The notes: generated by a model from the sequence alone, not told the origin. Shown: positions 1,020 to 32,000, counted from the first letter of the stretch. The stretch: DNA of 32,000 nt from Candidatus Saccharimonadota bacterium (GCA_004563595.2 CP042461.1:1170001-1202000), one strand, 5' to 3'. Numbers and translations: made by a program.

Positions 1020-1625
1020 ATGAAAACAACAAAAAATATATTAAAGATTCTTCTTTTACTTACTCTTAGTTCTTTCATATACCAAACAAGTGCTGAATAT
1101 AGAGTGTATGATAATGTATCAGAATTTGAAAAAGCCAAATGAGCAATATGTGAAGCTGCAACAGATTGATGTAATAATTACTTCATGACAAATGGAAAAG
1201 TAATGTGAGGAACAAAAATGTTCTGTCAGGATCAAAAAGTGGAATGGACTTGTACAAAACTCAAAGAATGAAGTGTTACTACTCTCTGATTACCAATGAC
1301 TACATGAATAGAGAATAGTACTGCAAGTGAAAATGATATAAATCTCCATAAACACCTCAGAAAAAACATCAAATCATCATATCAAAATAAAGTTGATACT
1401 CTCGTAAATAAAATTGAAGCAAGAGCATGAAAAATGTCTCCTCTTCTACAAGAAAGGTATTACGATAAATGGATCAATAAAATTGATAGCTTAATTTCAA
1501 AACTCTTAATGAAATACCCTGCAGATATAACCCTTCCAAAAAAGGCAAATACAGTATATCAAGTGCTCGAATTACTCAAACTTGAGATAGACCTCAACCT
1601 AAAACTGAATGTAGATCTAGAATAA
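1020..1625 (+). CDS. secreted hypothetical protein (signal peptide, Cys-containing N-domain, helical C-terminus)
   Basis: ATG 1020 is in frame with track ORF 1434..1625, with no TAA/TAG between. N-terminus MKTTKNILKILLLLTLSSFIYQTSAEY looks like a Sec signal. 7 in-frame TGA. Confidence 0.7.
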
Positions 1626-1661
1626 ACTTTTTCCTCCTTTCCTCTCTAGACTACATTCAGT

Positions 1662-1691
1662 AAAAAAGAAGCTGAAAAGCTTCTTTTTTTT
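1662..1691. terminator. bidirectional intrinsic terminator between convergent genes
   Basis: The sequence aaaaaAGAAGCtgaaaaGCTTCTttttttt has a 6-bp stem flanked by an A-run and a T-run. Confidence 0.7.
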
Positions 1692-1727
1692 GTCACAATA
1701 CATAATCCCATCTATTCTAACAAATAT

Positions 1728-2276
1728 TTACTCCACAATTATATCAAAACTATCCAAGAGTCAAAATACATTATCTCTCGAGAACTTAGTTTTTTCAAGA
1801 GTATTATTTAATGGGTTTATTGAATAATTCATAGCTCAAGTAAAGATTGTTTTTGTAAGGTTAGAGCTTAGGAATATAGACTTATCTAAGTCTGAGAAAC
1901 TAAGATCTGCTCATGTAAGATTTGTTCAAGTAAAATTTGACTCAAAAATATCAGAAGCTCAGAATCATATATTTTTTAAATTCATTTCATTAAATGAACA
2001 GAGTGTAATCATACAGTCTTTAAAATTGAAATATAATAATAAATCTTTCACTACACAAAAATCAACTCATAATATCTTTGTTTTTATAAATTCAACATTA
2101 TTAAAACACGTATTTTTTACACTAATATTTGATAGATTACATTTTTCAAATATACAATCATGAATTTTTTTTGTATCAAACTTATAATTTGAAAAATCTA
2201 TTCATGAAAAAGTAATGTTTGAAAATTCAGTTTCACTTATTATGTCTTGTAAATTATTTTCTGTTATTTTAGTCAT
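1728..2276 (-). CDS. pentapeptide repeat-containing protein
   Basis: ATG 2276..2274, TAA 1730..1728. Translation is dominated by A(D/N)LxX-type pentads: FSGIDFSNYKF, CIFEKCNLSNISVKNTCFNNVEF, ASDIFESNFTGTNLTGADLSFSDLDKSIFLSSNLTKTIFTGA. Confidence 0.8.
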
Positions 2277-2305
2277 GAATAGTAATAAAAAAATATTATT
2301 GCGAC

Positions 2306-3556
2306 TTATATTACTTCAATTTCATTTCTCCAAATATCTGACACTTCTTGCCTTTTCCTCATTTCAACTATTTCTCAGTTTGACTTTATAAGCAGTTCTC
2401 CTGCTTCTGGAAATGAGTTATAATTTTTCATAGACATAGACGAGTTATAGGCTCATGTTCATTCAACTACTATTGTATCTCAAATGCTAACTTTTGGAAG
2501 TGATATAGCCTCTAATTCTTCTTGAGAATAGAGTTTTGTAGTAAGTATATCTCAACTTTCACAACAATGCCCTACTACAACATATTCCTCAGTCTCTTCA
2601 GAGTCATTTAGTACAATAACTGGCTGTTGGACTCCATACATTGGAACTCTTGGCATTTCAGTCATTCAGGTATTTGTTCTGATAAATTTATACCCATTTT
2701 TTCAGGTATCAACTATATCATCTATTTTTGCAATCACACTACAAGAATTAATTACCATGTATTTTCCTGGTTCAACTTCTAGATGAACTTTTCTTCCTGT
2801 TTTTTCATAAAATTCCTCGAATTTTCCAGCAACACTTTTTCAAATAGCCTGTAAGTCAGCTGATTGCTCATATGGCATAATTGCTTTTTTGAATCAACCT
2901 CCCATATCAAGGATCGTAGCTGATTCAAATTGTGAAATAAAATTTAAACCAATACTTGCAGACTCAGTCCATGATTCTGGTGTATTTTCTGAACCAATAT
3001 GAATATGAATTTTTGAGATTTCTAGATTATATCTCTCTGCTAATTCTTTCACTTCTGGAACATATTCATGCCAAATACCAAAAGCTGAAGTTTCTCATCC
3101 AGTAGAAATAGCCTTGAAAGCTCATGATCCCATACCTGGATTTAATCTTACTCATATTTTTATTCCTGATTTTATTTTTCCAACTTCTTCTATTTGTTTT
3201 AAACTGGTTGCTACCATGAAGACTCATTTTTCAATAAGATCAACTAAGTTTCTAGGGGTTTCTTGCCCAGATATTTGTAAATCTTCTCACCTGTATCCAG
3301 CTTGTAATGCTCTATAAGCTTCGTATTCAGAGCTACAATCAATTTTAATTCCTTTATTTTTGAATATTTTTAATATATTTATGTTTGCATTCGCTTTCAT
3401 TGCATACCTTACGGTATGACCAAATGCATGTGGGAAAGCTAAAAAATTATCAGCTGCTTCTATGAGCTTCTCTTCTGAATAGACATATACTGGTGTAGTA
3501 AAGTTCTCTTCTATATCTGATATTTGTTCCCTTGTTAAAAAATTTAATTCGTGCAT
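2306..3556 (-). CDS. lysA: PLP-dependent Orn/DAP/Arg decarboxylase family 2 enzyme, most like diaminopimelate decarboxylase
   Basis: Every codon from ATG 3556 to TAA 2308..2306 was translated (417 codons, 14 in-frame TGA, no TAA/TAG). Motifs: RYAMKAN (PLP Lys), GGETSAFGIW, HIHIGS, LDMGGGF, EPGKYMV, GHCCESGD, GAYNSSMS. The CESGD motif favours LysA over ODC (from memory). Confidence 0.8.
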
Positions 3557-10126: not shown

Positions 10127-10175
10127 ACCCCTCCCCTTTCACTCCGTTTCAGGTACTCCCTTTGAAAAAGGGAGA
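10127..10175. other. GC-rich island with a perfect 8-bp hairpin in the holB to pilin-like spacer
   Basis: aaCCCCTCCCCTTTCACTCCGTTTCAGGTACTCCCTTTgaaAAAGGGAG contrasts with the AT-rich flanks. The CTCCCT..AGGGAG hairpin resembles those in the element at 28262..28396. Confidence 0.5.
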
Positions 10176-10205
10176 AATAAAATATGTATATAATTTTTCT
10201 TTTGC

Positions 10206-14473: not shown

Positions 14474-15280
14474 ATGAAAATATTTAATATCAATTTAGAC
14501 AGACTCAAATACAAAGATTTTTTTAGGAAAATTACAAAATTTGAAAAGCAAAATATTGTTTTTACTCCAAACCCCGAAATACTTTTAAAAACAAAATCTG
14601 ACAAAGAATTTTGAGATTTACTGAAAGAATCTGACTTCCTTACTCCTGATGGAATTGGTCTTTATATTGCTTTTCAAATTCTTGCAGAGAAAAATACTCT
14701 TTTTAAATATATAAAACTCCCCTATTATTTTTTCAATTTATTTTTCAGAAGACAATATTTATATAAACAATTTTGAGATAGAATTTGTGGATCAGACCTT
14801 ACAAAAGATGTATTACAATTTGCACAAAAAAATAAAATAAAAATAACAATTATAGATTTGTATAATCCTACTGATACAAAAAAGGTAGAATCTCAAGAAA
14901 TATTTTCTGATACATTAAAGTCTAAATTTCCTGAGCTTACATTTGATTATTTCATATATAATCCCGAACATAAAGATTCTATTTTAAAGAAAATCCAAAA
15001 GTCAGAAAGTAAGGTTCTTTTTTCTACTCTTGGAATGAAAAAACAAGAAGAATCTGTAATTGAAATAATAGGAAAGTGTAAAAATATCAAATTATGACTT
15101 GGAATATGAAGTAGTTTTGACTATATCATTTGATTCCAAAAACGAGCCCCTACTTTATTCAGAAAACTTTGACTAGAGTGGCTCTATCGACTTATTACTG
15201 GACCAAGAAAAATTGATAGATTAAAAAGAATTTGGAACGCAATTTTTATATTTACTTATACAATTCTGAGAGAAAAATAA
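14474..15280 (+). CDS. WecB/TagA/CpsF family glycosyltransferase
   Basis: ATG 14474 is in frame with track ORF 14858..15097. Motifs: FTPNPEILL, LTPDGIGL, LGIGSSFDYIIGFQKRAP, GLEWLYRLITGPRKIDR. TAA at 15278-15280. Confidence 0.85.
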
Positions 15281-25778: not shown

Positions 25779-26816
25779 TTAAAATTCCCAACTTCAGTTC
25801 ATAGCACTTGATTGAGCATAGTTTACAACCGTTGATTCAAAGAAGTTTCATTTTTCACCGTTATTATCTTGAAGTCTATCAAGATGTTTATATGGGTTTG
25901 TAACTACATTATCATATAATGGTGCGAGACCAAGCATATTTAACCTTTCATTTGCAAGCCATTTTGTATAGTTTTCAATATTCTCATGCCCCATACCAAT
26001 GATATTTTTTCAAAGAATATGCTTTGACCATTGAATTTCTTGTTCCACTGCGGTATCCATCATATCATATAACATTTTTTCATCATATACTTCAGGAGCT
26101 TCTTTTTTGATTTCTTTTATAATATTTGCAAAGATGGTTACATGAGTGAGTTCATCTCTTCTAATATAACTAATCATTCTATCTGAAGCTACCATCTTTC
26201 ATTGGTCAGCAAGAGTATCAAAAAAAGCAAAACCATTATAAAAATAAATACTTTCGAGTAAGAAATTTCAGACAACTCCTCTAAAAAAATTCTTATCCGT
26301 AGGTTTATCAACAAAATCTTGATAAATTTGTCCAATATATTCATTTCTTTCTAAAAGATGTTTATCTTCTCTCCAAAAATAATAAAAATCATCTCTATCA
26401 TTTGAATCAACAATGGATTCTAACAATACAGCATATGATTGTGAATGAATTGCTTCTTGGTATGCTTGAATTGATAAAATTAAATTTACTTCTGGTGCTG
26501 TAATATAATCATTAAAGTTTGGAAGATTTACTGTTTGAATAGAATCTAGGAATATTAAAAATGATAAGATTCATTTAAATGCTCTTTGTTCATTTTCTGG
26601 AAGTGTTTTTAATTGAATAGCATCTTCCCCAAGCCCAGATACTTTTTCTGGAAGCCAAAAGTTTCAAACCATAACTTGATACATATTTTTTGCCCAAGTA
26701 TATTTTGTTGAATTTAGCTGAAATAGTCATGTTGTATTTCATTTTATGATTTTTCTATTTGCAACCTCATCATTCCCTTCTGGATTAAAGATTTTATTTG
26801 CTTTAAATTCTGACAT
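25779..26816 (-). CDS. class I ribonucleotide reductase beta (small) subunit
   Basis: ATG 26816..26814, TAA 25781..25779; the frame contains track ORF 26010..26195. Motifs: NFWLPEKV, FLIFLDSIQT, QAYQEAIHSQSY, ESIYFYNGFAFF, SYIRRDELTHV, C-terminal WEF. Ia versus Ib was not resolved. Confidence 0.9.
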
Positions 26817-26844
26817 ATTTTTTAAATTATTAATACTAATATAA

Positions 26845-27297
26845 TTATTTATTATTTTCTAGATTTTCAGCAATAAATTTCATAAAATCTTTTGCTGTTT
26901 CAAAGTTTAAATGTACGGATGCATATCTTACGTATGCAACTTCATCAATATTAGAAAGCTCTTTTAAAACATCTGTTCAGATTTCTTTTGTTGGAATTTC
27001 AGATTTGGTATTCCATTTCAATTCCAAGCTTCTGATTAAATCATTTATTTTCTTTACACTCAGGTTTCTTTTGTTTGTTGCTTTTAACAAACTATCTTCT
27101 AGTTTTGATCTATTATATTTTTGTTTTTTATTTCATGATTTTACAACTACAAGGTTGATGAGCTCAATTTTTTCGAATGTAGTAAATCTATAACTACAAT
27201 TTTCACACTCTCTCCTTCTCCTAATAGAGTCTCATTCTTCTGTAGACCTCGAATCAATGACTCTTGTGTCTGTATTTCAACATTTTATACAATACAT
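26845..27297 (-). CDS. nrdR: transcriptional repressor NrdR
   Basis: [42 protein letters not shown] is a Zn ribbon, followed by an ATP-cone ([11 protein letters not shown]). TAA at 26847..26845. Confidence 0.92.
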
Positions 27298-27349
27298 AGT
27301 GGTTTATACAAATTATAAATAAATATAATTGACGTTTAGTATATCTTTT

Positions 27350-28051
27350 TTAAGCTCTTATTCAAATATTTCTTACATATTTTTTAGATATATTTTTAAG
27401 TTGCTCCAACTCCTGCATCTGGAAGCTTTTTCAAGTAAAATCTTTTTTTAATGTATTTCCAGATCTATAGTTTTGAAGAAAATAATTTTGTGCTCATTCT
27501 ATATTTTTTGCAATATTTTCTATATCTTCTTCTGTATGAATTCATTTAATAACTGTGGTTCTAAATTCATAAGCTATTTTTGAATTTAGTAATATTTTTA
27601 CTGATTTTTTATATTCTTCTTCACTCTCATTCACTCATACAATTTCATGCAATTTTCAAAATGGATTTTTCATATCCATTGCTACATAATCTAATAGATT
27701 GTTATCTAATAATTTTTGTAATACTTCTGGATCTCTTCCATTGGTATCAAGCTTCACTAAGAATCACATATCTTTTATTTTTTTACAAAATATATAAAGA
27801 TCTTTCTGCAAAGTTGGCTCACCTCAACAAATAGAAACTCATTCTAAAAGTCCTTTTCTTTTTTCTAAAAATGCAAGAAATGCTTTCTCAAAAATCAAAG
27901 ATTTTAAATTTTTTTTTAAAAACTCAGGAAGTACAAACTCTGGATTATGGCAAAAATCACACCTGAAATTGCATCCAGGTGTGAAAATGATACATGAGAC
28001 TTTCCCAGGAAAATCTATTAATGAAAACTTCGTTATTCAAGAAATGAGCAT
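27350..28051 (-). CDS. nrdG: anaerobic ribonucleoside-triphosphate reductase activating protein (radical SAM)
   Basis: ATG 28051..28049, TAA 27352..27350. Motifs: SLIDFPGKVSCIIFTPGCNFRCDFCHNPE (CxxxCxxC), GVSICGGEPTL, VKLDTNG. Confidence 0.9.
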
Positions 28052-28057
28052 GATTTT

Positions 28058-28237
28058 TTAGTTATATATGTTATTGAAATTATCATTTGATTTGAAATAA
28101 TTTCTACTATAAAATTCTGCTTTTTTTCAAATATTAAAACTCGAAACTGGTCTATGATATCCCATAACTCTTGTGTAAATTTCACATTTAGTTCTTTCTA
28201 CTTCTTGACCTTCTTTTGTTATAAATATTGCTGACAT
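28058..28237 (-). CDS. nrdD: stand-alone NrdD C-terminal glycyl-radical segment (59 codons)
   Basis: ATG 28237..28235, TAA 28060..28058. Product: MSAIFITKEGQEVERTKCEIYTRVMGYHRPVSSFNIGKKAEFYSRNYF. RVMGY..N.GK..E is the NrdD radical-Gly signature. It is in the same reading frame as the main nrdD ORF. Confidence 0.7.
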
Positions 28238-28261
28238 GGTTGTTTTTATTAGTTGTTAAAA

Positions 28262-28396
28262 TTTAAGCTCCCTCTGTCCTAACGGACATCTCCCTCCATG
28301 AGGGAGAACAATAAGATCCCCTTCTTGGAGGGGGATGCCTGAAAGGCAGGGGGAGTTGCAGTTCCTTCCTCTTTACACCCTCACCTTCCCTAATTC
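28262..28396. other. GC-rich multi-hairpin element embedded in the nrdD interruption
   Basis: This GC-rich block has four adjacent hairpins. They are 28275-79/28284-88, 28290-96/28300-06, 28316-24/28328-36 and 28336-39/28345-48. A long-range helix, 28268-76/28347-55, encloses them. Two G-U pairs form only in the plus-strand RNA. Confidence 0.6.
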
Positions 28397-30577
28397 CTTC
28401 ATTTTTTCTGCATCATCTGTATACTTTTCTCTAAATTTTAGATCATATTTATCTCACGTATATCCTATTTTTTCATCACATTTTGGACAATAATCATGTT
28501 CTCAAGTGATATACCCATGAGTAGGACATATAGAGAATGTGGGTGAAACTGTAATATATGGAAGTTGATAGGTTCCTATTACATTTCTGACAAAGTTTTT
28601 ACATGACTGACTATCTGTTAATCTTTCTCACATATACAAATGAAGAACTGTCCCTCAAGTATATTTACATTGAAGTTCATTTTGCTGATCTAGTGCTTCA
28701 AAAGGATCATCCGTAAATCCTACTGGGAGCTGTGAGGAGTTGGTGTAATATGGTGCTTCAGTAGTTCCTGATTGAATAATATTTGGCATTTGCTTCTTAT
28801 CTTCACGAGCAAATCTATAAGTTGTCCCTTCTGCTGGTGTTGCTTCAAGATTATACATATTTCCAGTTTCTTCTTGAAATTCTTTGAGAGTATCCCTCAT
28901 ATAATCTAGAATTTCAGTTGAAAACTCTTTTCCCCATTTACTCGCAACATTTTCTTTCCCTTTTGTAAAATTAAGAATCGCTTCATTCATACCATTTAAT
29001 CAGATGGTAGAAAAATGATTTCTAAAACTTCTTAAATATCTATATGTATATGGATATAATCCAGAATTTAACCATTTTGTGATTGTTTTTCTTTTAAGTT
29101 CAAGTGAGATTTTTGCTTGTTCCATTAAGTGTTCCACTTGTGTTTTAAATCCTTCTTTATCTCAAGCAAAAGTATATCAGATACGAGCTAGGTTCAGAGT
29201 CACCACTCCAATACTTCCAGTCATTTCTGCTGAACCAAAAAGTCCATTTCATCTTTTCTCAAGTTGTGAGAGGTCAAGTTGTAATCTACAACACATAGAT
29301 CTTACCGCTCCTGGTTTATATGCATCTGGATTTTCTACTGATTCATATTCTCCATCTTCTTTTTGTACTCTTTTGAACTGAGATCATACAAAGTTTTGGA
29401 AGTATGGTAATCCGTATTTAGCTGTCATTTCAAATAAAGCATTAATATCTGGGTCATCCCATGGGAAATCTTCTGTGATATTATATGTTGGAATTGGGAA
29501 TGTGAATACTCTTCCTTTTCTATCTCATTTTACATATACATCAATAAGTGCTCTGTTTATAATCCTCATCTCAGGTTCTAAATCACCATATTTTTTCTTA
29601 TAGTGCCCTTGTTCAGTTCCTCCAAGGAATAATGATTTTTCTTTGAGGTCATCTGGAACGGTCCAATCAAGAGTTATATTTGTAAATGGAGTTTGTGTCC
29701 CCCATCTACTTGGTACATTTAACCCAAAAATGAAATTTTGCATTTGTTGATAGACATATTTATATGTTTTATCATCAATATAGTTTTGTTTTTCTTTTTC
29801 AGTTTTAAAGCTTGCATTTGTTTCTTGTAATTCCTGAATTGTTTCTTCTTTATATTTATGAACATATGGAGCAAGGTAAGTATCAAAAGATGAAAATGCT
29901 TGTGCTCATGCCCATTCATTTTGAAGGGTTCAAAGGAAGTTTATCATTTGATTTACTGCAGCTTGTAGGTTCTTTGCTGGGCCTGAATCGATTCTATTAT
30001 CACTCCCATTAAATCATTCTTCAAGTAACGCTCTCAAACTCCACCCAGCACAATATCCACAAAACATATCAAGATCATGGATATGCATATCTCAGTTTCT
30101 ATGTAGGTTTCAAACTTCAGCTGGGTATATGTGAGAGAGCCAATAGTTCGCTGTTACTTTTCATGATAGGTTTAATATCATTCAACCCAATGAATACCCA
30201 GAGTTTGCATTTGCATTTACTCTCCAGTCTGATTTATCAAGGTATTCTTCCATACTTTGCCCTACTTCTATCACGACATTTCTATCTGATCTTTGTTCTG
30301 ATCTTTTTTCTCTATATACGATATACTTTTTTACTACTTCATCATGTCATTCTTTTATAAGTGCTTCTTCTACAGCATCTTGTATAAGTTCAACTGATGG
30401 GATTTCATTCCCTACTTCTGCCTCTATTAGAGCTATAGCAATATTTGTAATGGTTTTTACGGATTCAAAATTATCTCATCCAGCTGCTTTAATCGACTGA
30501 ACTAATGCTTCTTCAATTTTTGTTCTATCAAAAGATATAATAGCTCAATTCCTTTTTTTTACTTTGTATATAGGCAT
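28373..30577 (-). CDS. nrdD: anaerobic ribonucleoside-triphosphate reductase (class III), main body ending after the Zn ribbon
   Basis: ATG 30577..30575; the frame links track ORFs 29525..29743 and 28655..28990 through TGA codons to TAA 28375..28373 (735 codons). It has an N-terminal ATP-cone (VKKRNGAIISFDRTKI). Other motifs: HIHDLDMF, SMCCRLQL, GSIGVVTLNLARIG, EATPAEG, PYYTNSSQLP, GGTVLHLY, PTFSICPTHGYITGEHDYCPKC. Confidence 0.9.
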
Positions 30578-30611
30578 AAGAGAACATGATAATTATCTAA
30601 AATAAAAAGCA

Positions 30612-30625
30612 AGCACATGTAGTGT
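30612..30625. promoter_or_regulatory. NrdR-box-like operator (pair A, promoter-proximal)
   Basis: agcacatgtagtgt lies 33 bp centre-to-centre from the box at 30645, downstream of the candidate -10. Confidence 0.5.
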
Positions 30626-30637
30626 TTACATATTTTT

Positions 30638-30666
30638 ATAATATACAATATATAGTGTTTTTACAA
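30638..30666 (-). promoter_or_regulatory. candidate nrdD promoter with an NrdR box in the spacer
   Basis: The minus strand reads TTGTAA (30666..30661), a 17-nt spacer, then TATTAT (30643..30638). The spacer contains the box acactatatattgt. Confidence 0.45.
30645..30658. promoter_or_regulatory. NrdR-box-like operator (pair A)
   Basis: acaatatatagtgt (reverse complement acactatatattgt) closely matches the palindromic NrdR-box consensus as remembered (acaCwAtATaTwGtgt). Confidence 0.65.
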
Positions 30667-30742
30667 ATTTTTTGAGGTATTTTAGATTGACTATTTTCAT
30701 ATATATTTCAGTGGAATTTTAAGGTCTGAATTTATAGCGCAA

Positions 30743-30756
30743 AACTAGATCTAGAT
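30743..30756. promoter_or_regulatory. NrdR-box-like palindrome (pair B)
   Basis: aaCTAGATCTAGat contains a perfect 10-bp palindrome and matches 8 of 10 core consensus positions. It is 33 bp from the box at 30776. Confidence 0.4.
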
Positions 30757-30775
30757 AAATTTAAATTTAAACAAT

Positions 30776-30789
30776 ACAATATATAGTGC
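30776..30789. promoter_or_regulatory. NrdR-box-like operator (pair B)
   Basis: acaatatatagtgc, with the surrounding atacaatatatagtg(c/t)ttt, duplicates the 30645 site almost exactly. Confidence 0.6.
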
Positions 30790-30926
30790 TTTTCTGTTTT
30801 AAATTTATTATTATCATAATAACAATAAATAACTTGCAATAACCTCCTAAATTCATACAATCCATGCACCTGGGCAAGGTGTCATATAATCTATGGCGAA
30901 TTCTTAATTATATTAAGAGTTTAAAT

Positions 30927-30962
30927 AAAACCCCATACATAATATATTATGTATGGGGTTTT
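30927..30962. terminator. intrinsic terminator after the class I alpha gene
   Basis: aaaaCCCCATACATAATatATTATGTATGGGGtttt is a long perfect palindrome with flanking A and T runs. Confidence 0.8.
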
Positions 30963-30976
30963 ATGATTGGAGTTAT

Positions 30977-32000
30977 CTATCCACTACAACTTACACATTC
31001 TTTCACATCTAAACTCATTGATCTTACATAATACACTGTTTTAATCCCTTGTTTCCAAGATTTCATGTAGTATCTATATAAGTCAGCTGGAGATGTTTCT
31101 TGGGGGTTTATAATCCATTCAAATGATGCTGATTGGTCAATCCATTTGTAGACAACACTCATCATATCAATAACATCTTCCATATCCATGTTTACGTACT
31201 CTTTGTAATACCAGAAATTTTCAGAGTTTAGGTTGGGGGCAACTACAACTGTTGGAGCAACCTTATTTGTTTCTACGAAATATCTCTTATAAATCGGGAG
31301 CATAGCAGCTGTTGTTCAGACGACTCATGCTGTTGAAGTATTTGGAGCTGGAGCTAAGTGATATGCAAACCTCATACCATCTTTTTTGATATTATCAATA
31401 AGTTTACTCCACTTACCAGACATTTTAGAGTTATTTTTAAACCAATTTTTATCTTTTCAAATTATGATTCATTTTGACCATTCCGATCATTCATATATAT
31501 CATATGTACCTCTTTGTTTTGCTAATTCATTTGAAGCTTTAAATGTATGATATGCAAATAATTCCATAACTTCATCCATTTTATCTCTTGCTTCTTTTGT
31601 ATCATAAGCAAGCTTACTACATGCTAAGAATTCTGCTACTCATAAGAATCATACTCATACTGACCTATATTTTTTTGCTGTCAATTCAGCTTCTTTGATT
31701 GGATAATAATTCAAATCAATAACATTATCAAGAATCCTCATTACAACTGGAGTTACTTTTTCTATTTCCTCAGCTGTATTTACTTTCCCAATATTTATTG
31801 AAGCCAGATTACATACTACTGTATCTCAAGGAGTATATTTGATAACTATATTACCATCCTCAATTGCTTCTTCTACATATTTAGAAGCTGATGTATTTTG
31901 ACAAATCTCAGTACATAATTGTGTAGAATAAATATTTCAAGCATGTTTATTTGGATTGAGTTTGTTTACGGTATCACGATAGAATACATATGGCATTCCT
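30977..32000 (-). CDS. class I ribonucleotide reductase alpha (large) subunit, C-terminal part (gene continues beyond the window end)
   Basis: This is the frame of track ORF 30977..31303, extended upstream through TGA codons to the window edge. The C-terminus is WKQGIKTVYYVRSMSLDVKECVSCSG, with the typical YY and CxxC tail. TAG at 30979..30977. Confidence 0.85.

What the first reader, a model, noticed from the sequence alone, without database searches (positions are those of the whole stretch)
28058..28490. nrdD is interrupted just before its glycyl-radical motif by a ~294-nt in-frame segment carrying exactly two TAA codons
Seen: the class III RNR gene runs in one frame from ATG 30577 and has every expected element up to the Zn ribbon SICPTHGYITGEHDYCPKC (last Cys codon 28478-28480). 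The radical motif EIYTRVMGYHRPVSSFNIGKKAEF is present but lies 98 codons further on, from 28183 downward (radical Gly codon GGA at 28160-28162). It sits inside a separate 59-codon ORF starting at ATG 28237. Both pieces are in the same reading frame, separated by only two in-frame TAA codons (28373-28375 and 28256-28258). The 38 codons between the stops are the GC-rich block. Established (from memory): in E. coli and T4 NrdD only about 15 residues separate the last ribbon Cys from the radical Gly. RNR genes are classic homing sites for introns and inteins, and T4 nrdD (sunY) carries a group I intron. Inference, option (a): an intervening RNA is spliced out or translationally bypassed. Option (b): a mobile GC-rich insertion has split nrdD, so the radical domain is made as a separate spare-part-like polypeptide. 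That polypeptide would be translationally coupled to nrdG, since its stop at 28058 is 6 nt from the nrdG ATG at 28051. Option (c): the gene is decaying. I could not fit canonical group I P/Q/R/S elements by eye.
Basis: partly seen in the sequence, partly recalled or inferred. Interest (0 to 1): 0.85.

Follow-up and report, generated by a model that had tools for sequence, protein, structure and literature searches.

The report
Two-gene anaerobic RNR plus hairpin insertion
The anaerobic ribonucleotide reductase gene here is not broken by an intron: like its relatives in many bacterial phyla it is naturally encoded as a large catalytic protein plus a separate ~60-residue protein carrying the radical glycine, and this one genome has additionally picked up a GC-rich palindromic repeat element in the short gap between the two genes.

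Summary
The window comes from Candidatus Gracilibacteria bacterium 28_42_T64 (TGA = Gly).

- **The split is old and widespread.** The large nrdD ORF (734 aa) stops 34 residues after the Zn ribbon. The glycyl-radical motif sits in a separate 59-aa ORF. I found the same arrangement in 82 of 83 related loci from Patescibacteria, Pseudomonas, Flavobacterium, Campylobacterota, Akkermansia and alpha- and betaproteobacteria.
- **The small ORF is a gene of its own.** It lies in any of the three frames relative to the large ORF. The median spacer is 31 nt. SD-using phyla have a Shine-Dalgarno site in front of it. In one genome other genes separate the two ORFs. Its dN/dS is about 0.2.
- **Rejected readings.** Intron, translational bypass and pseudogene are all rejected. 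The shared reading frame is coincidence.
- **The GC-rich block is a later insertion.** It spans about 28263-28372 and lies in the pre-existing spacer, which is 23-37 nt in six relatives. It is an inverted pair of 45-nt two-hairpin units from a repeat family dispersed in TGA-recoded AT-rich contigs. A close sequence relative occurs in Rhizobiales.
- **Literature.** I found no paper describing a split class III RNR.

The parts
28373..30577 (-). nrdD large ORF (734 aa, stop TAA 28373-28375). It contains an ATP-cone, the catalytic barrel and the Zn ribbon, but no glycyl-radical loop.
   Evidence: Table-25 translation. It is 100% identical to P0001, 'ribonucleoside triphosphate reductase [Candidatus Gracilibacteria bacterium 28_42_T64]'. 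Pfam ATP-cone and NRDD match profile positions 2-529 of 562. NCBIfam NF006126 matches at 1010 bits, up to profile position 652 of 684.
28478..28528 (-). Zn-ribbon codons C-P-T-H...C-P-K-C (CxxH-N9-CxxC).
   Evidence: Sequence and translation. C, H, C and C are invariant in the alignment of 21 relatives.
28376..28477 (-). 34-codon C-terminal tail of the large ORF (DEKIGYTGDKYDLKFREKYTDDAEKMKELGKVRV). It is family-specific and absent from contiguous NrdDs.
   Evidence: The tail is conserved up to ...YTDDxxKM in 120 homologues, nearly all of 733-738 aa. NF006126 coverage of the large ORF ends at residue 705.
28263..28372 (-). Lineage-specific insertion of about 110 nt in the intergenic spacer (the GC-rich block).
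   Evidence: Alignment with the three closest relatives shows a clean gap here. Six code-25 relatives have spacers of 23-37 nt, against 135 nt in the window.
28314..28358 (+). Left arm of the element: one two-hairpin unit, read on the + strand.
   Evidence: Covariance model R1 scores 62.6 bits, E = 4e-20.
28265..28310 (-). Right arm of the element: one two-hairpin unit (TCTCCCTC-ATG-GAGGGAGA, TGTCC-GTTA-GGACA, GAGGGAG).
   Evidence: R1 scores 70.1 bits, E = 1e-22. The two arms pair into a hairpin of about 90 nt, with MFE -51 kcal/mol for the spacer.
28238..28262 (-). Native AT-rich spacer immediately upstream of the small ORF (TTAAATTTTAACAACTAATAAAAACAACC).
   Evidence: It aligns with the whole spacer of the relatives.
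28058..28237 (-). Small ORF (59 aa plus stop) encoding the glycyl-radical loop ERTKCEIYTRVMGYHRPVSSFNIGKKAEFYSR.
   Evidence: Pfam NRDD matches profile positions 531-562 of 562, and NF006126 matches positions 649-683 of 684. The search returned 371 stand-alone homologue clusters; the best 120 are 46-73 aa. dN/dS is 0.19-0.26.
28160..28162 (-). Codon GGA for the predicted radical glycine (G26 of the small protein).
   Evidence: Sequence. The motif RVMGY is invariant in homologues.
28127..28129 (-). TGA codon read as Gly in the conserved FNIGKK motif.
   Evidence: With table 11 the ORF ends here at 36 aa. Standard-code relatives have Gly at this position, as in FNPGKQ and FNIGKK.
27350..28051 (-). 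nrdG, the radical-SAM activase. Its ATG lies 6 nt after the small-ORF stop.
   Evidence: Pfam Radical_SAM and Fer4_12. The same gene order is seen in relatives.
26845..27297 (-). nrdR repressor gene.
   Evidence: Pfam Zn_ribbon_NrdR and ATP-cone.
25779..26816 (-). Class I RNR small subunit (nrdB-like).
   Evidence: Pfam Ribonuc_red_sm, E = 1e-70.
30977..31996 (-). 3' part of a class I/II RNR large-subunit gene upstream of nrdD. It runs off the window.
   Evidence: Pfam Ribonuc_red_lgC matches positions 186-523 of 523.

Best explanation
nrdD in this genome belongs to a large, old subclass of class III ribonucleotide reductases that is encoded as two genes.

- **Large gene.** It makes the ATP-cone, the catalytic barrel and the Zn ribbon. 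It ends 8-38 residues after the last ribbon cysteine.
- **Small gene.** It is separately initiated, 43-86 codons long, and lies just downstream. It makes the loop RTxCx[VI][YW]TRVMGYxRPV that carries the radical glycine.

Inference: the small protein docks into the barrel where the covalently attached C-terminal loop sits in one-piece NrdDs. The NrdG activase encoded next to it installs the glycyl radical on it. The two polypeptides together form the active enzyme.

The GC-rich block is a separate and later event. It is an inverted pair of 45-nt two-hairpin units (REP/BIME- or MITE-like) that inserted into the already existing 25-35-nt spacer in this lineage only. It leaves both ORFs and the AT-rich leader of the small ORF intact. 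On the mRNA it forms a hairpin of about 90 nt that ends 27 nt before the small-ORF ATG. That hairpin may be neutral, or it may modulate mRNA stability or read-through.

Shown: gene architecture, conservation, selection, the insertion boundaries and repeat-family membership. Inferred: assembly of the two proteins, radical placement on the small protein, and any effect of the hairpin.
For: **Split architecture**
- All 120 best NrdD homologues (69-100% identity; Gracilibacteria, Absconditabacteria/SR1) cover only 89-93% of a fused query. Nearly all are 733-738 aa and end at the same place.
- The 59-aa ORF has 371 homologue clusters. The best 120 are all stand-alone proteins of 46-73 aa with a conserved Met start.
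- A Pseudomonas small ORF finds 1572 further clusters. The best 120 are 48-94 aa, and RefSeq annotates such proteins in Pseudomonas, Stutzerimonas, Diaphorobacter and Thiopseudomonas.
- In 83 loci analysed, 82 are split. Frames are 14 same, 38 at +1 and 30 at +2. The median spacer is 31 nt, with a range of -26 to 1172 nt.
- Of 69 standard-code loci, 41 have an SD-like purine-rich motif upstream of the small-ORF ATG. It is a clear AAGGAG or GGAGG in the proteobacterial loci.
- In Sulfuricurvum, nrdG and a cytochrome c gene separate the two ORFs.
- dN/dS of the small ORF is 0.19-0.26.
- NF006126 covers the large ORF to profile position 652 and the small ORF at positions 649-683. Together the two pieces make one complete NrdD.
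- nrdG follows immediately.

**Insertion**
- Relatives at 80-82% identity have 23-37-nt AT-rich spacers and align on both sides of a gap of about 110 nt.
- A 23-specified-base pattern from the block hit 42 metagenome contigs. Eighteen of them are AT-rich, and 17 of those are TGA-recoded: coding coverage is 0.80-0.99 with table 25 against 0.00-0.66 with table 11.
- These copies carry the same two arms around an AT-rich centre. They lie between unrelated housekeeping genes such as gatA/fmt, wecG and DUF2130.
- Model R1 finds exactly two units in the window, and both lie in this spacer.
- The hairpins are supported: 94.6% of cells form pairs, and 4 pairs show changes on both sides.
Against: - No transcript, peptide or enzyme data exist for any member, so assembly and radical placement on the small protein are inferred from homology.
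- I could not model the complex.
- Only 32 kb of this genome could be examined, so the copy number of the element in this genome is unknown.
- No target-site duplication was seen and no transposase was linked to the element, so 'mobile' rests on presence/absence at orthologous sites and on dispersal across loci.
- The covariation in the unit comes mostly from the difference between the two arm types, which means few independent events.
- The hairpin is followed by CTTAAATTTT. If it terminated transcription efficiently, it would cut off the small ORF and nrdG. That has not been excluded.
Confidence: 0.85

Rival explanations
1. An intervening RNA (a group I/II or other self-splicing intron) or a translational bypass or read-through joins the two in-frame pieces into one NrdD polypeptide.
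For: The two pieces are in the same frame and separated by only two TAA codons. RNR genes, including T4 nrdD, are known intron hosts (PMC3653736). The intervening block is highly structured.
Against: - No intron family hit appears at E<=10 on either strand. The only hits are hairpin-driven, miRNA-like matches far below threshold.
- Relatives have 23-37-nt spacers, too short for any intron, yet show the same stop and the same ATG.
- The frame differs in 68 of 82 split loci.
- The small ORF has its own SD site.
- In L014 the two ORFs are separated by other genes.
- The codon before the stop (GTG) has no matching landing codon before ATG 28237.
Confidence: 0.02
2. nrdD is decaying. The truncated large ORF and the orphan 59-codon ORF are remnants, and the cell relies on the neighbouring class I RNR.
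For: Class I RNR genes flank the locus. The genome is reduced and symbiont-like (PMC6851277).
Against: - The truncation point is identical in more than 120 homologues down to 69% identity.
- The small ORF is under purifying selection, with dN/dS about 0.2.
- A conserved Gly is encoded by TGA inside an intact motif.
- nrdG is intact and adjacent.
- The same architecture occurs in free-living Pseudomonas, Flavobacterium and others.
Confidence: 0.03
3. The GC-rich hairpin is not a neutral passenger. It works as an RNA element in the nrd operon. It could be a partial terminator or attenuator, an mRNA-stabilising 3' hairpin for the large cistron, or an RNase III processing site. In each case it would set the large:small expression ratio.
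For: - The spacer folds at -51 kcal/mol. The antisense strand folds better than shuffled sequences, with z = -3.6.
- Other copies abut stop codons and are flanked by an A-run and a T-run, like bidirectional terminators.
- Other Gracilibacteria (L001, L006) have acquired unrelated GC-rich hairpins in the same spacer.
Against: - Six relatives, including the closest, manage without it.
- The sense-strand fold is not significantly better than shuffles, with z = -1.6.
- The T-run after the window copy is interrupted (CTTAAATTTT).
- The simple scan calls only a 5-bp sub-hairpin terminator-like.
- Strong termination here would silence the small ORF and nrdG.
Confidence: 0.25
4. The small protein is an optional GrcA-like spare part that rescues oxygen-damaged enzyme. 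It is not an obligate subunit.
For: It is a stand-alone protein of about 60 aa with a glycyl-radical motif, like GrcA/YfiD for pyruvate formate-lyase (PMC13450708).
Against: The large ORF has no glycyl-radical loop of its own. Its Pfam NRDD match stops at position 529 of 562 and its NF006126 match at 652 of 684. There is therefore nothing to rescue, and the small protein must supply the only radical site. No second full-length nrdD is present in the window.
Confidence: 0.05

Closest known systems
Split class II RNR NrdJa/NrdJb of Pseudomonas aeruginosa, and split class I NrdA-a/NrdA-b of Aeromonas phage Aeh1
   Same: The RNR catalytic subunit is encoded as two consecutive ORFs that are translated separately and must assemble. 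The split is conserved across a clade (PMC4520616; PMC3267527; PMC9669993).
   Different: Those splits are in class I and class II enzymes and separate large domains. Here the enzyme is class III, and the detached piece is only about 60 aa and carries the radical-bearing glycine itself. I found no paper that lists a split class III enzyme.
GrcA/YfiD autonomous glycyl radical cofactor ('spare part') of pyruvate formate-lyase
   Same: Both are small stand-alone proteins consisting essentially of a glycyl-radical loop that is activated by a radical-SAM activase and inserted into a large barrel protein.
   Different: GrcA is homologous to the PFL C-terminus and backs up an enzyme that has its own loop. 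The protein here is homologous to the NrdD C-terminus (PF13597). Its partner has no loop, so it is obligate. A 2026 review states that formate lyases are the only GRE class with known spare-part proteins (PMC13450708).
One-piece NrdD (phage T4 1H7A, T. maritima 4COI, Prevotella copri 8P23)
   Same: Both have an ATP-cone, a barrel, a Zn ribbon, the RVxGY radical loop and an nrdG partner. P0001 aligns to 8p23 over residues 4-701.
   Different: In one-piece enzymes the loop follows the ribbon directly, with 40 further residues in 8p23. Here a stop codon, a spacer and a new start intervene, and both proteins carry extra family-specific segments: a 34-aa tail and a leader of about 15 aa.
T4 nrdD (sunY) group I intron and other intron- or intein-split phage nrd genes
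   Same: Both involve an nrdD coding sequence in two pieces (PMC3653736).
   Different: Those are spliced at the RNA or protein level into one chain. Here there is no intron or intein signature, the frames vary and the small ORF has its own start.
REP/BIME elements of enterobacteria, Correia elements of Neisseria, and other bacterial MITEs
   Same: The element is a short extragenic imperfect palindrome of about 90-125 nt. It is much more GC-rich than its surroundings, occurs as an inverted pair of units, lies directly after stop codons and inside operons, and is dispersed at unrelated loci.
   Different: It has no sequence similarity to those families and no Rfam match. No target-site duplication was seen. 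No associated transposase (RAYT or DDE) was identified. The hosts are TGA-recoded Patescibacteria.

Membership tests
Class III RNR catalytic subunit NrdD (PF13597 / NCBIfam NF006126) | NrdD barrel with N-terminal ATP-cone | tested here: met
   The large ORF matches PF13597 at E = 1e-166 and PF03477 at 3e-16. NF006126 scores 1010 bits against a cutoff of 548.
Class III RNR catalytic subunit NrdD (PF13597 / NCBIfam NF006126) | C-terminal Zn ribbon with four ligands | tested here: met
   CPTH...CPKC lies at 28478-28528. C, H, C and C are invariant in 21 relatives.
Class III RNR catalytic subunit NrdD (PF13597 / NCBIfam NF006126) | Glycyl-radical loop RVxGY on the same polypeptide | tested here: not met
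   The loop is on a separate 59-aa ORF. The large ORF's profile match ends before it. The two ORFs together satisfy the family model.
Class III RNR catalytic subunit NrdD (PF13597 / NCBIfam NF006126) | Adjacent radical-SAM activase NrdG | tested here: met
   Position 27350-28051 matches Radical_SAM and Fer4_12.
Class III RNR catalytic subunit NrdD (PF13597 / NCBIfam NF006126) | Glycyl radical formed and NTP reduction activity | not testable with these tools
   This needs EPR and an enzyme assay of the reconstituted large + small + NrdG system.
Group I / group II self-splicing intron | Conserved catalytic RNA core detectable by covariance models | tested here: not met
   An Rfam 15 scan of 27900-28700 on both strands at E<=10 gave only miRNA-like hairpin hits far below gathering scores.
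Group I / group II self-splicing intron | Uninterrupted orthologues define an empty site at which the exons are contiguous | tested here: not met
   Orthologues without the GC block still have the stop, a 23-37-nt spacer and the ATG. The frames differ.
Programmed translational bypass (T4 gene 60 type) | Matched take-off and landing codons, and a single frame relation conserved among homologues | tested here: not met
   The take-off codon would be GTG, and there is no GTG before ATG 28237. The small ORF is in a different frame in 68 of 82 loci.
Split intein (protein trans-splicing) | N-intein of about 100 aa at the end of the first protein and C-intein of about 35 aa at the start of the second | tested here: not met
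   The tail after the ribbon is 8-38 aa. The leader before the radical loop is about 10-25 aa. Pfam finds no intein domain.
GrcA/YfiD spare-part proteins | Homology to the PFL C-terminal glycyl-radical domain, and a partner enzyme with its own loop | tested here: not met
   The small ORF hits only PF13597 NRDD. The partner lacks a loop. It may work in a similar way, but it is not a member.
REP/BIME-like or MITE-like repeat | Short imperfect palindrome, with units in inverted pairs | tested here: met
   Two R1 units lie in inverted orientation at 28265-28310 (-) and 28314-28358 (+). The two hairpins per unit are 94.6% paired over 23 copies.
REP/BIME-like or MITE-like repeat | Multiple dispersed extragenic copies | tested here: met
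   Eighteen AT-rich contigs carry the unit, and 17 of them are clearly TGA-recoded. The copies lie between unrelated genes, and one contig has two copies. The copy number in this genome itself could not be tested, because only 32 kb was available.
REP/BIME-like or MITE-like repeat | Presence/absence polymorphism at orthologous sites | tested here: met
   The element is present in the window but absent from the nrdD spacer of six relatives. It is present after the wecG homologue in L098 but absent after the window's wecG at 14474-15280.
REP/BIME-like or MITE-like repeat | Target-site duplication (MITE) or an associated RAYT/transposase (REP) | tested here: inconclusive
   No consistent direct repeat flanks nine full copies. 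No transposase was found among the nine flanking ORFs scanned. The genome was not searched as a whole.

The most novel reading that the evidence does not exclude
A large, phylum-spanning subclass of anaerobic (class III) ribonucleotide reductases is an obligate two-protein enzyme. Its glycyl radical sits on a detachable protein of about 60 residues. This would act as a built-in replaceable radical cartridge: cells exposed to oxygen could rebuild an oxygen-cleaved enzyme by replacing a 6-7-kDa peptide instead of an 85-kDa protein. The hosts include Pseudomonas, Flavobacterium, Caulobacter, Akkermansia, Campylobacterota and CPR symbionts. This architecture appears not to have been described, although RefSeq annotates the pieces.
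Probability: 0.35. Interest if true: 0.7.

Novelty: new variant of a known kind. Interest (0 to 1): 0.55.

Why it matters
For genome annotation, the result removes a false alarm. This is not an intron, a recoding site or a pseudogene. The small ORF should be called as a gene and not dropped; it was left uncalled in at least one relative, L128.

For enzymology, the interest is the family rather than this locus. If the glycyl radical of a class III RNR really resides on a free 55-65-aa protein in hundreds of species, including cultivable Pseudomonas and Flavobacterium, several questions become directly testable:
- how a glycyl-radical loop is delivered to an activase and to the barrel;
- whether it exchanges;
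- whether oxygen damage is repaired by replacing the loop protein.

Until now these questions could be addressed only with PFL and GrcA.

The palindromic element adds a repeat family for TGA-recoded Patescibacteria. Its resemblance to Rhizobiales repeats is unexplained.

Tried and rejected
- **Rfam scan of 27900-28700 at E<=10.** It gave no intron or ribozyme, only hairpin-driven miRNA-like hits.
- **Rfam at gathering threshold on 11 element-bearing loci.** It gave nothing for the element; the only hit was an unrelated TPP riboswitch.
- **Repeat search within the window.** It found no other copy of the block.
- **BLASTN of the block against phages.** No match.
- **BLASTN of the block against plasmids.** It gave only 35-46-nt hits in Rhizobiales plasmids. 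Those hits led to the unit comparison.
- **Two exact-pattern scans of viral contigs.** No match.
- **phmmer of the fused C-terminal 133 aa against the PDB.** No match. The full-length query worked.
- **Exact-protein look-ups.** P0001 is not on record. I therefore could not reach the rest of this genome.
- **Structure prediction of a fused large+small chain.** An MSA mixing large and small homologues also misaligned the small ones.
- **Literature searches for a split class III RNR, an NrdD spare part, PA1920 and the repeat sequence.** Nothing was found describing either feature.
- **Split-intein reading.** Rejected on size.
- **Intrinsic terminator reading.** Not supported by the consensus scan, but not excluded.
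Full report
**1. The observation**

The window is AT-rich (29% GC) and uses TGA as a sense codon. Translating the minus strand with table 25 from ATG 30577 gives one continuous reading frame. It holds a 734-aa NrdD, then TAA (28373-28375), then 38 codons, then TAA (28256-28258), and six codons later ATG 28237. That ATG opens a 59-codon ORF ending at 28058-28060, followed by the nrdG ATG at 28051. Position 28262-28405 is one of only two stretches of the window that reach 50% GC. The large ORF is 100% identical to the NrdD of Candidatus Gracilibacteria bacterium 28_42_T64, from a 1.34-Mb contig.

**2. The split is ancestral and widespread**

I searched with a fused large+small query. All 120 best hits came from Gracilibacteria, Absconditabacteria/SR1 and 'Altimarinota', at 69-100% identity. 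They cover only 89-93% of the query, and nearly all are 733-738 aa. Their C-termini align: CPKCD, then a conserved tail ...GYxGxKFDxETRxxYTDDxxKM, a few variable residues, and a stop.

Searching with the 59-aa ORF returned 371 clusters. The best 120 are all stand-alone proteins of 46-73 aa that begin with Met and carry ERT[KR]CEIYTRVMGYHRPV.

The 80 best loci include only nine from Patescibacteria-like MAGs. The rest are Flavobacterium, Pseudomonas/Stutzerimonas, Sulfuricurvum, Sulfurospirillum, Sulfurimonas, Campylobacter, Akkermansia, Caulobacter, Burkholderiales, Thiobacillus and Chromatiales, at 58-68% identity up to the Zn ribbon.

In 82 of 83 loci analysed, the large ORF stops 8-38 residues after the last Cys. 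The radical motif then lies in a separate ORF of 43-86 codons. Relative to the large ORF, that ORF is in the same frame in 14 loci, in +1 in 38 and in +2 in 30. The spacer ranges from -26 to +1172 nt, with a median of 31.

Further points support an independent gene:
- Proteobacterial loci have AAGGAG or GGAGG upstream of the small-ORF ATG; an SD-like motif was scored in 41 of 69 standard-code loci.
- In Sulfuricurvum (L014), nrdG and a cytochrome c gene lie between the two ORFs.
- One locus (L046, Obscuribacterales) is a single 730-aa ORF with a 27-residue linker.
- A third protein search, started from a Pseudomonas small ORF, found 1572 clusters. The best 120 are 48-94 aa, and RefSeq names them 'anaerobic ribonucleoside-triphosphate reductase' or 'oxidoreductase'.

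**3. Both pieces are functional parts of one NrdD**

Pfam NRDD matches the large ORF over profile positions 2-529 and the small ORF over 531-562. NCBIfam NF006126 (684 positions) matches the large ORF up to position 652 and the small ORF at 649-683. The two proteins therefore add up to exactly one NrdD. The 34-aa tail and the leader of about 15 aa are family-specific extras.

Against solved structures, the large ORF aligns with Prevotella copri NrdD (8p23, 743 aa) over residues 4-701. After that point the solved chain continues for 40 residues.

The small ORF is under purifying selection. dN/dS is 0.19-0.26 against five relatives, with dS of 0.50-0.66. One conserved glycine (FNIGKK) is encoded by TGA at 28127-28129. 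This is why a table-11 ORF finder sees only 36 codons.

nrdG, nrdR and nrdB follow on the same strand, and a class I/II large-subunit gene precedes nrdD.

**4. What this excludes**

- *Intron.* Rfam finds nothing intron-like. Relatives that lack the GC block still have the stop, the ATG and a spacer of only 23-37 nt.
- *Bypass or read-through.* The frame relation is not conserved. There is no landing codon matching the GTG before the stop.
- *Split intein.* The extra segments are far too short.
- *Pseudogene.* Conservation and dN/dS argue against it.

The shared frame in this genome has a prior chance of about one in three, and 14 of 82 relatives show it.

**5. The GC-rich block**

The three closest relatives (80-82% identity; L081-L083) align with the window on both sides of a gap of about 110 nt. 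The gap begins directly after the TAA and ends at the AT-rich leader of the small ORF. L128, L129 and SR1 RAAC1 (L130) also have spacers of 23-34 nt. The block, at about 28263-28372, is therefore an insertion into an existing spacer.

It folds into a hairpin of about 90 nt. The spacer alone folds at -51 kcal/mol. The 171-nt region folds at -54 kcal/mol on the sense strand (z = -1.6) and at -60.6 kcal/mol on the antisense strand (z = -3.6).

A 23-specified-base pattern from its right arm found 42 metagenome contigs. Eighteen of them are 22-36% GC. Seventeen of these are TGA-recoded: coding coverage is 0.80-0.99 with table 25 against 0.00-0.66 with table 11.

At least nine copies there have the same layout:
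- a left arm, AACTCCCCCTGCCTTTCAGGCATCCCCCTCCATGAGGGGGAAC;
- an AT-rich centre of about 35 nt;
- a right arm, GTCTCCCTCATGGAGGGAGATGTCCGTTAGGACAGAGGGAGTT.

The arms are imperfect inverted repeats of each other. The window copy has the centre reduced to about 10 nt.

Each arm is a 45-nt unit with two hairpins. Over 23 copies, 94.6% of cells are paired, and 4 pairs show changes on both sides, mostly between the two arm types.

A covariance model of the unit finds exactly two copies in the window, at 28265-28310 (-) and 28314-28358 (+). It finds none in the nrdD spacers of the relatives.

Elsewhere the elements sit a few nucleotides after stop codons, between unrelated genes: gatA/fmt, wecG, DUF2130/DUF559, UPF0029/YgjP. 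Solo units also occur. I saw no target-site duplication and no transposase.

This is the profile of a REP/BIME-like or MITE-like repeat. Whether it influences nrd expression is open. The consensus scan does not call the full hairpin a terminator, and its downstream T-run is interrupted.

**6. How it most likely works**

*Shown.* There are two genes, each conserved and each with its own start. Together they cover the NrdD profile and sit next to nrdG.

*Inferred.* The small protein is the substrate of NrdG. It carries the glycyl radical on G26 and occupies the position of the C-terminal loop in the barrel of the large protein. The conserved tail of the large protein and the leader of the small one probably form the interface. 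The element is transcribed as part of the operon mRNA and is probably tolerated, possibly affecting stability.

**7. Comparison with what is known**

Split class I (phage Aeh1) and class II (NrdJa/NrdJb) RNRs have been described. Phage nrdD genes split by introns or inteins are also described. I found no paper that mentions a class III enzyme with a separately encoded radical loop. [quoted passage not shown] The genome paper for this organism mentions neither nrd genes nor this repeat.

The library I searched holds open-access papers only. The pieces are also routinely annotated by RefSeq, so specialists may know of the arrangement. I therefore rate it as a new variant of a known kind, and not as categorically new.

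**8. Verdict**

The 'interruption' has two layers. The first is an ancient two-gene architecture of a whole NrdD subclass. The second is a recent palindromic-repeat insertion in the spacer of this one lineage. Interest is moderate, and it attaches mainly to the apparently undescribed two-protein class III RNR.

Noticed in passing
window 28265-28358; L084-L088, L091, L093, L096, L100-L102, L106, L110, L111, L113-L116, L118-L120, L122-L125, L127: The 45-nt two-hairpin unit of the element is about 85% identical to a repeat in GC-rich (59-70%) Rhizobiales-type contigs and plasmids (GATCTCCCCCCTTGTGGGGGAGATGTCCGGCAGGACAGAGGGAGG). There it also occurs as inverted pairs around a centre. It is unexplained why the same unit occurs in two phyla of opposite base composition. 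No Rfam family matches, and no paper containing the sequence was found.
   Followed up: partly
L014 2988-4290 (Sulfuricurvum sp. PD_MW2): The small glycyl-radical ORF lies 1.17 kb downstream of the large nrdD ORF. nrdG (246 aa) and a 98-aa cytochrome c-like ORF lie in between, so the gene order within the split system is not fixed.
   Followed up: partly
L046 (Candidatus Obscuribacterales MAG), about 1028-3220: This is the only one-piece member among 83 loci. It is a 730-aa ORF in which CPLCD is joined to RQPCEVWTRVMGYHRPV by a 27-residue linker. It may be a secondary fusion of the two genes.
   Followed up: no
L006 3134-3390 and L001 3131-3356: Two other code-25 genomes have long nrdD spacers (253 and 222 nt). 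They contain unrelated GC-rich hairpins, for example GTGCGGCGCGCAAAGCGCGCCGCAC. This spacer seems to have acquired palindromic insertions repeatedly.
   Followed up: no
window 28127-28129: A glycine that is conserved in standard-code relatives (FNxGK) is encoded by TGA inside the small ORF. This gives a clean local confirmation of the TGA = Gly code. It also explains why table-11 gene callers truncate or miss this gene. In L128 no small ORF was called at all.
   Followed up: yes
window 25779-31996, minus strand: All RNR-related genes are clustered on one strand: a class I/II large subunit (partial), the nrdD large ORF, the nrdD small ORF, nrdG, nrdR, and a class I small subunit.
   Followed up: partly
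L098 4934-5861 versus window 14474-15280: A full copy of the element follows the wecG-type glycosyltransferase gene in a related contig. The homologous gene in the window has no copy after it, which gives a second presence/absence polymorphism.
   Followed up: partly
L004 3526-3618; window 10128-10177: Model R1 gives two weak hits. One is 27.7 bits (E = 3e-7), just downstream of the small ORF in a Peribacteria-labelled MAG. The other is 9.5 bits (E = 0.13), in the window. They could be degenerate units or chance matches.
   Followed up: no
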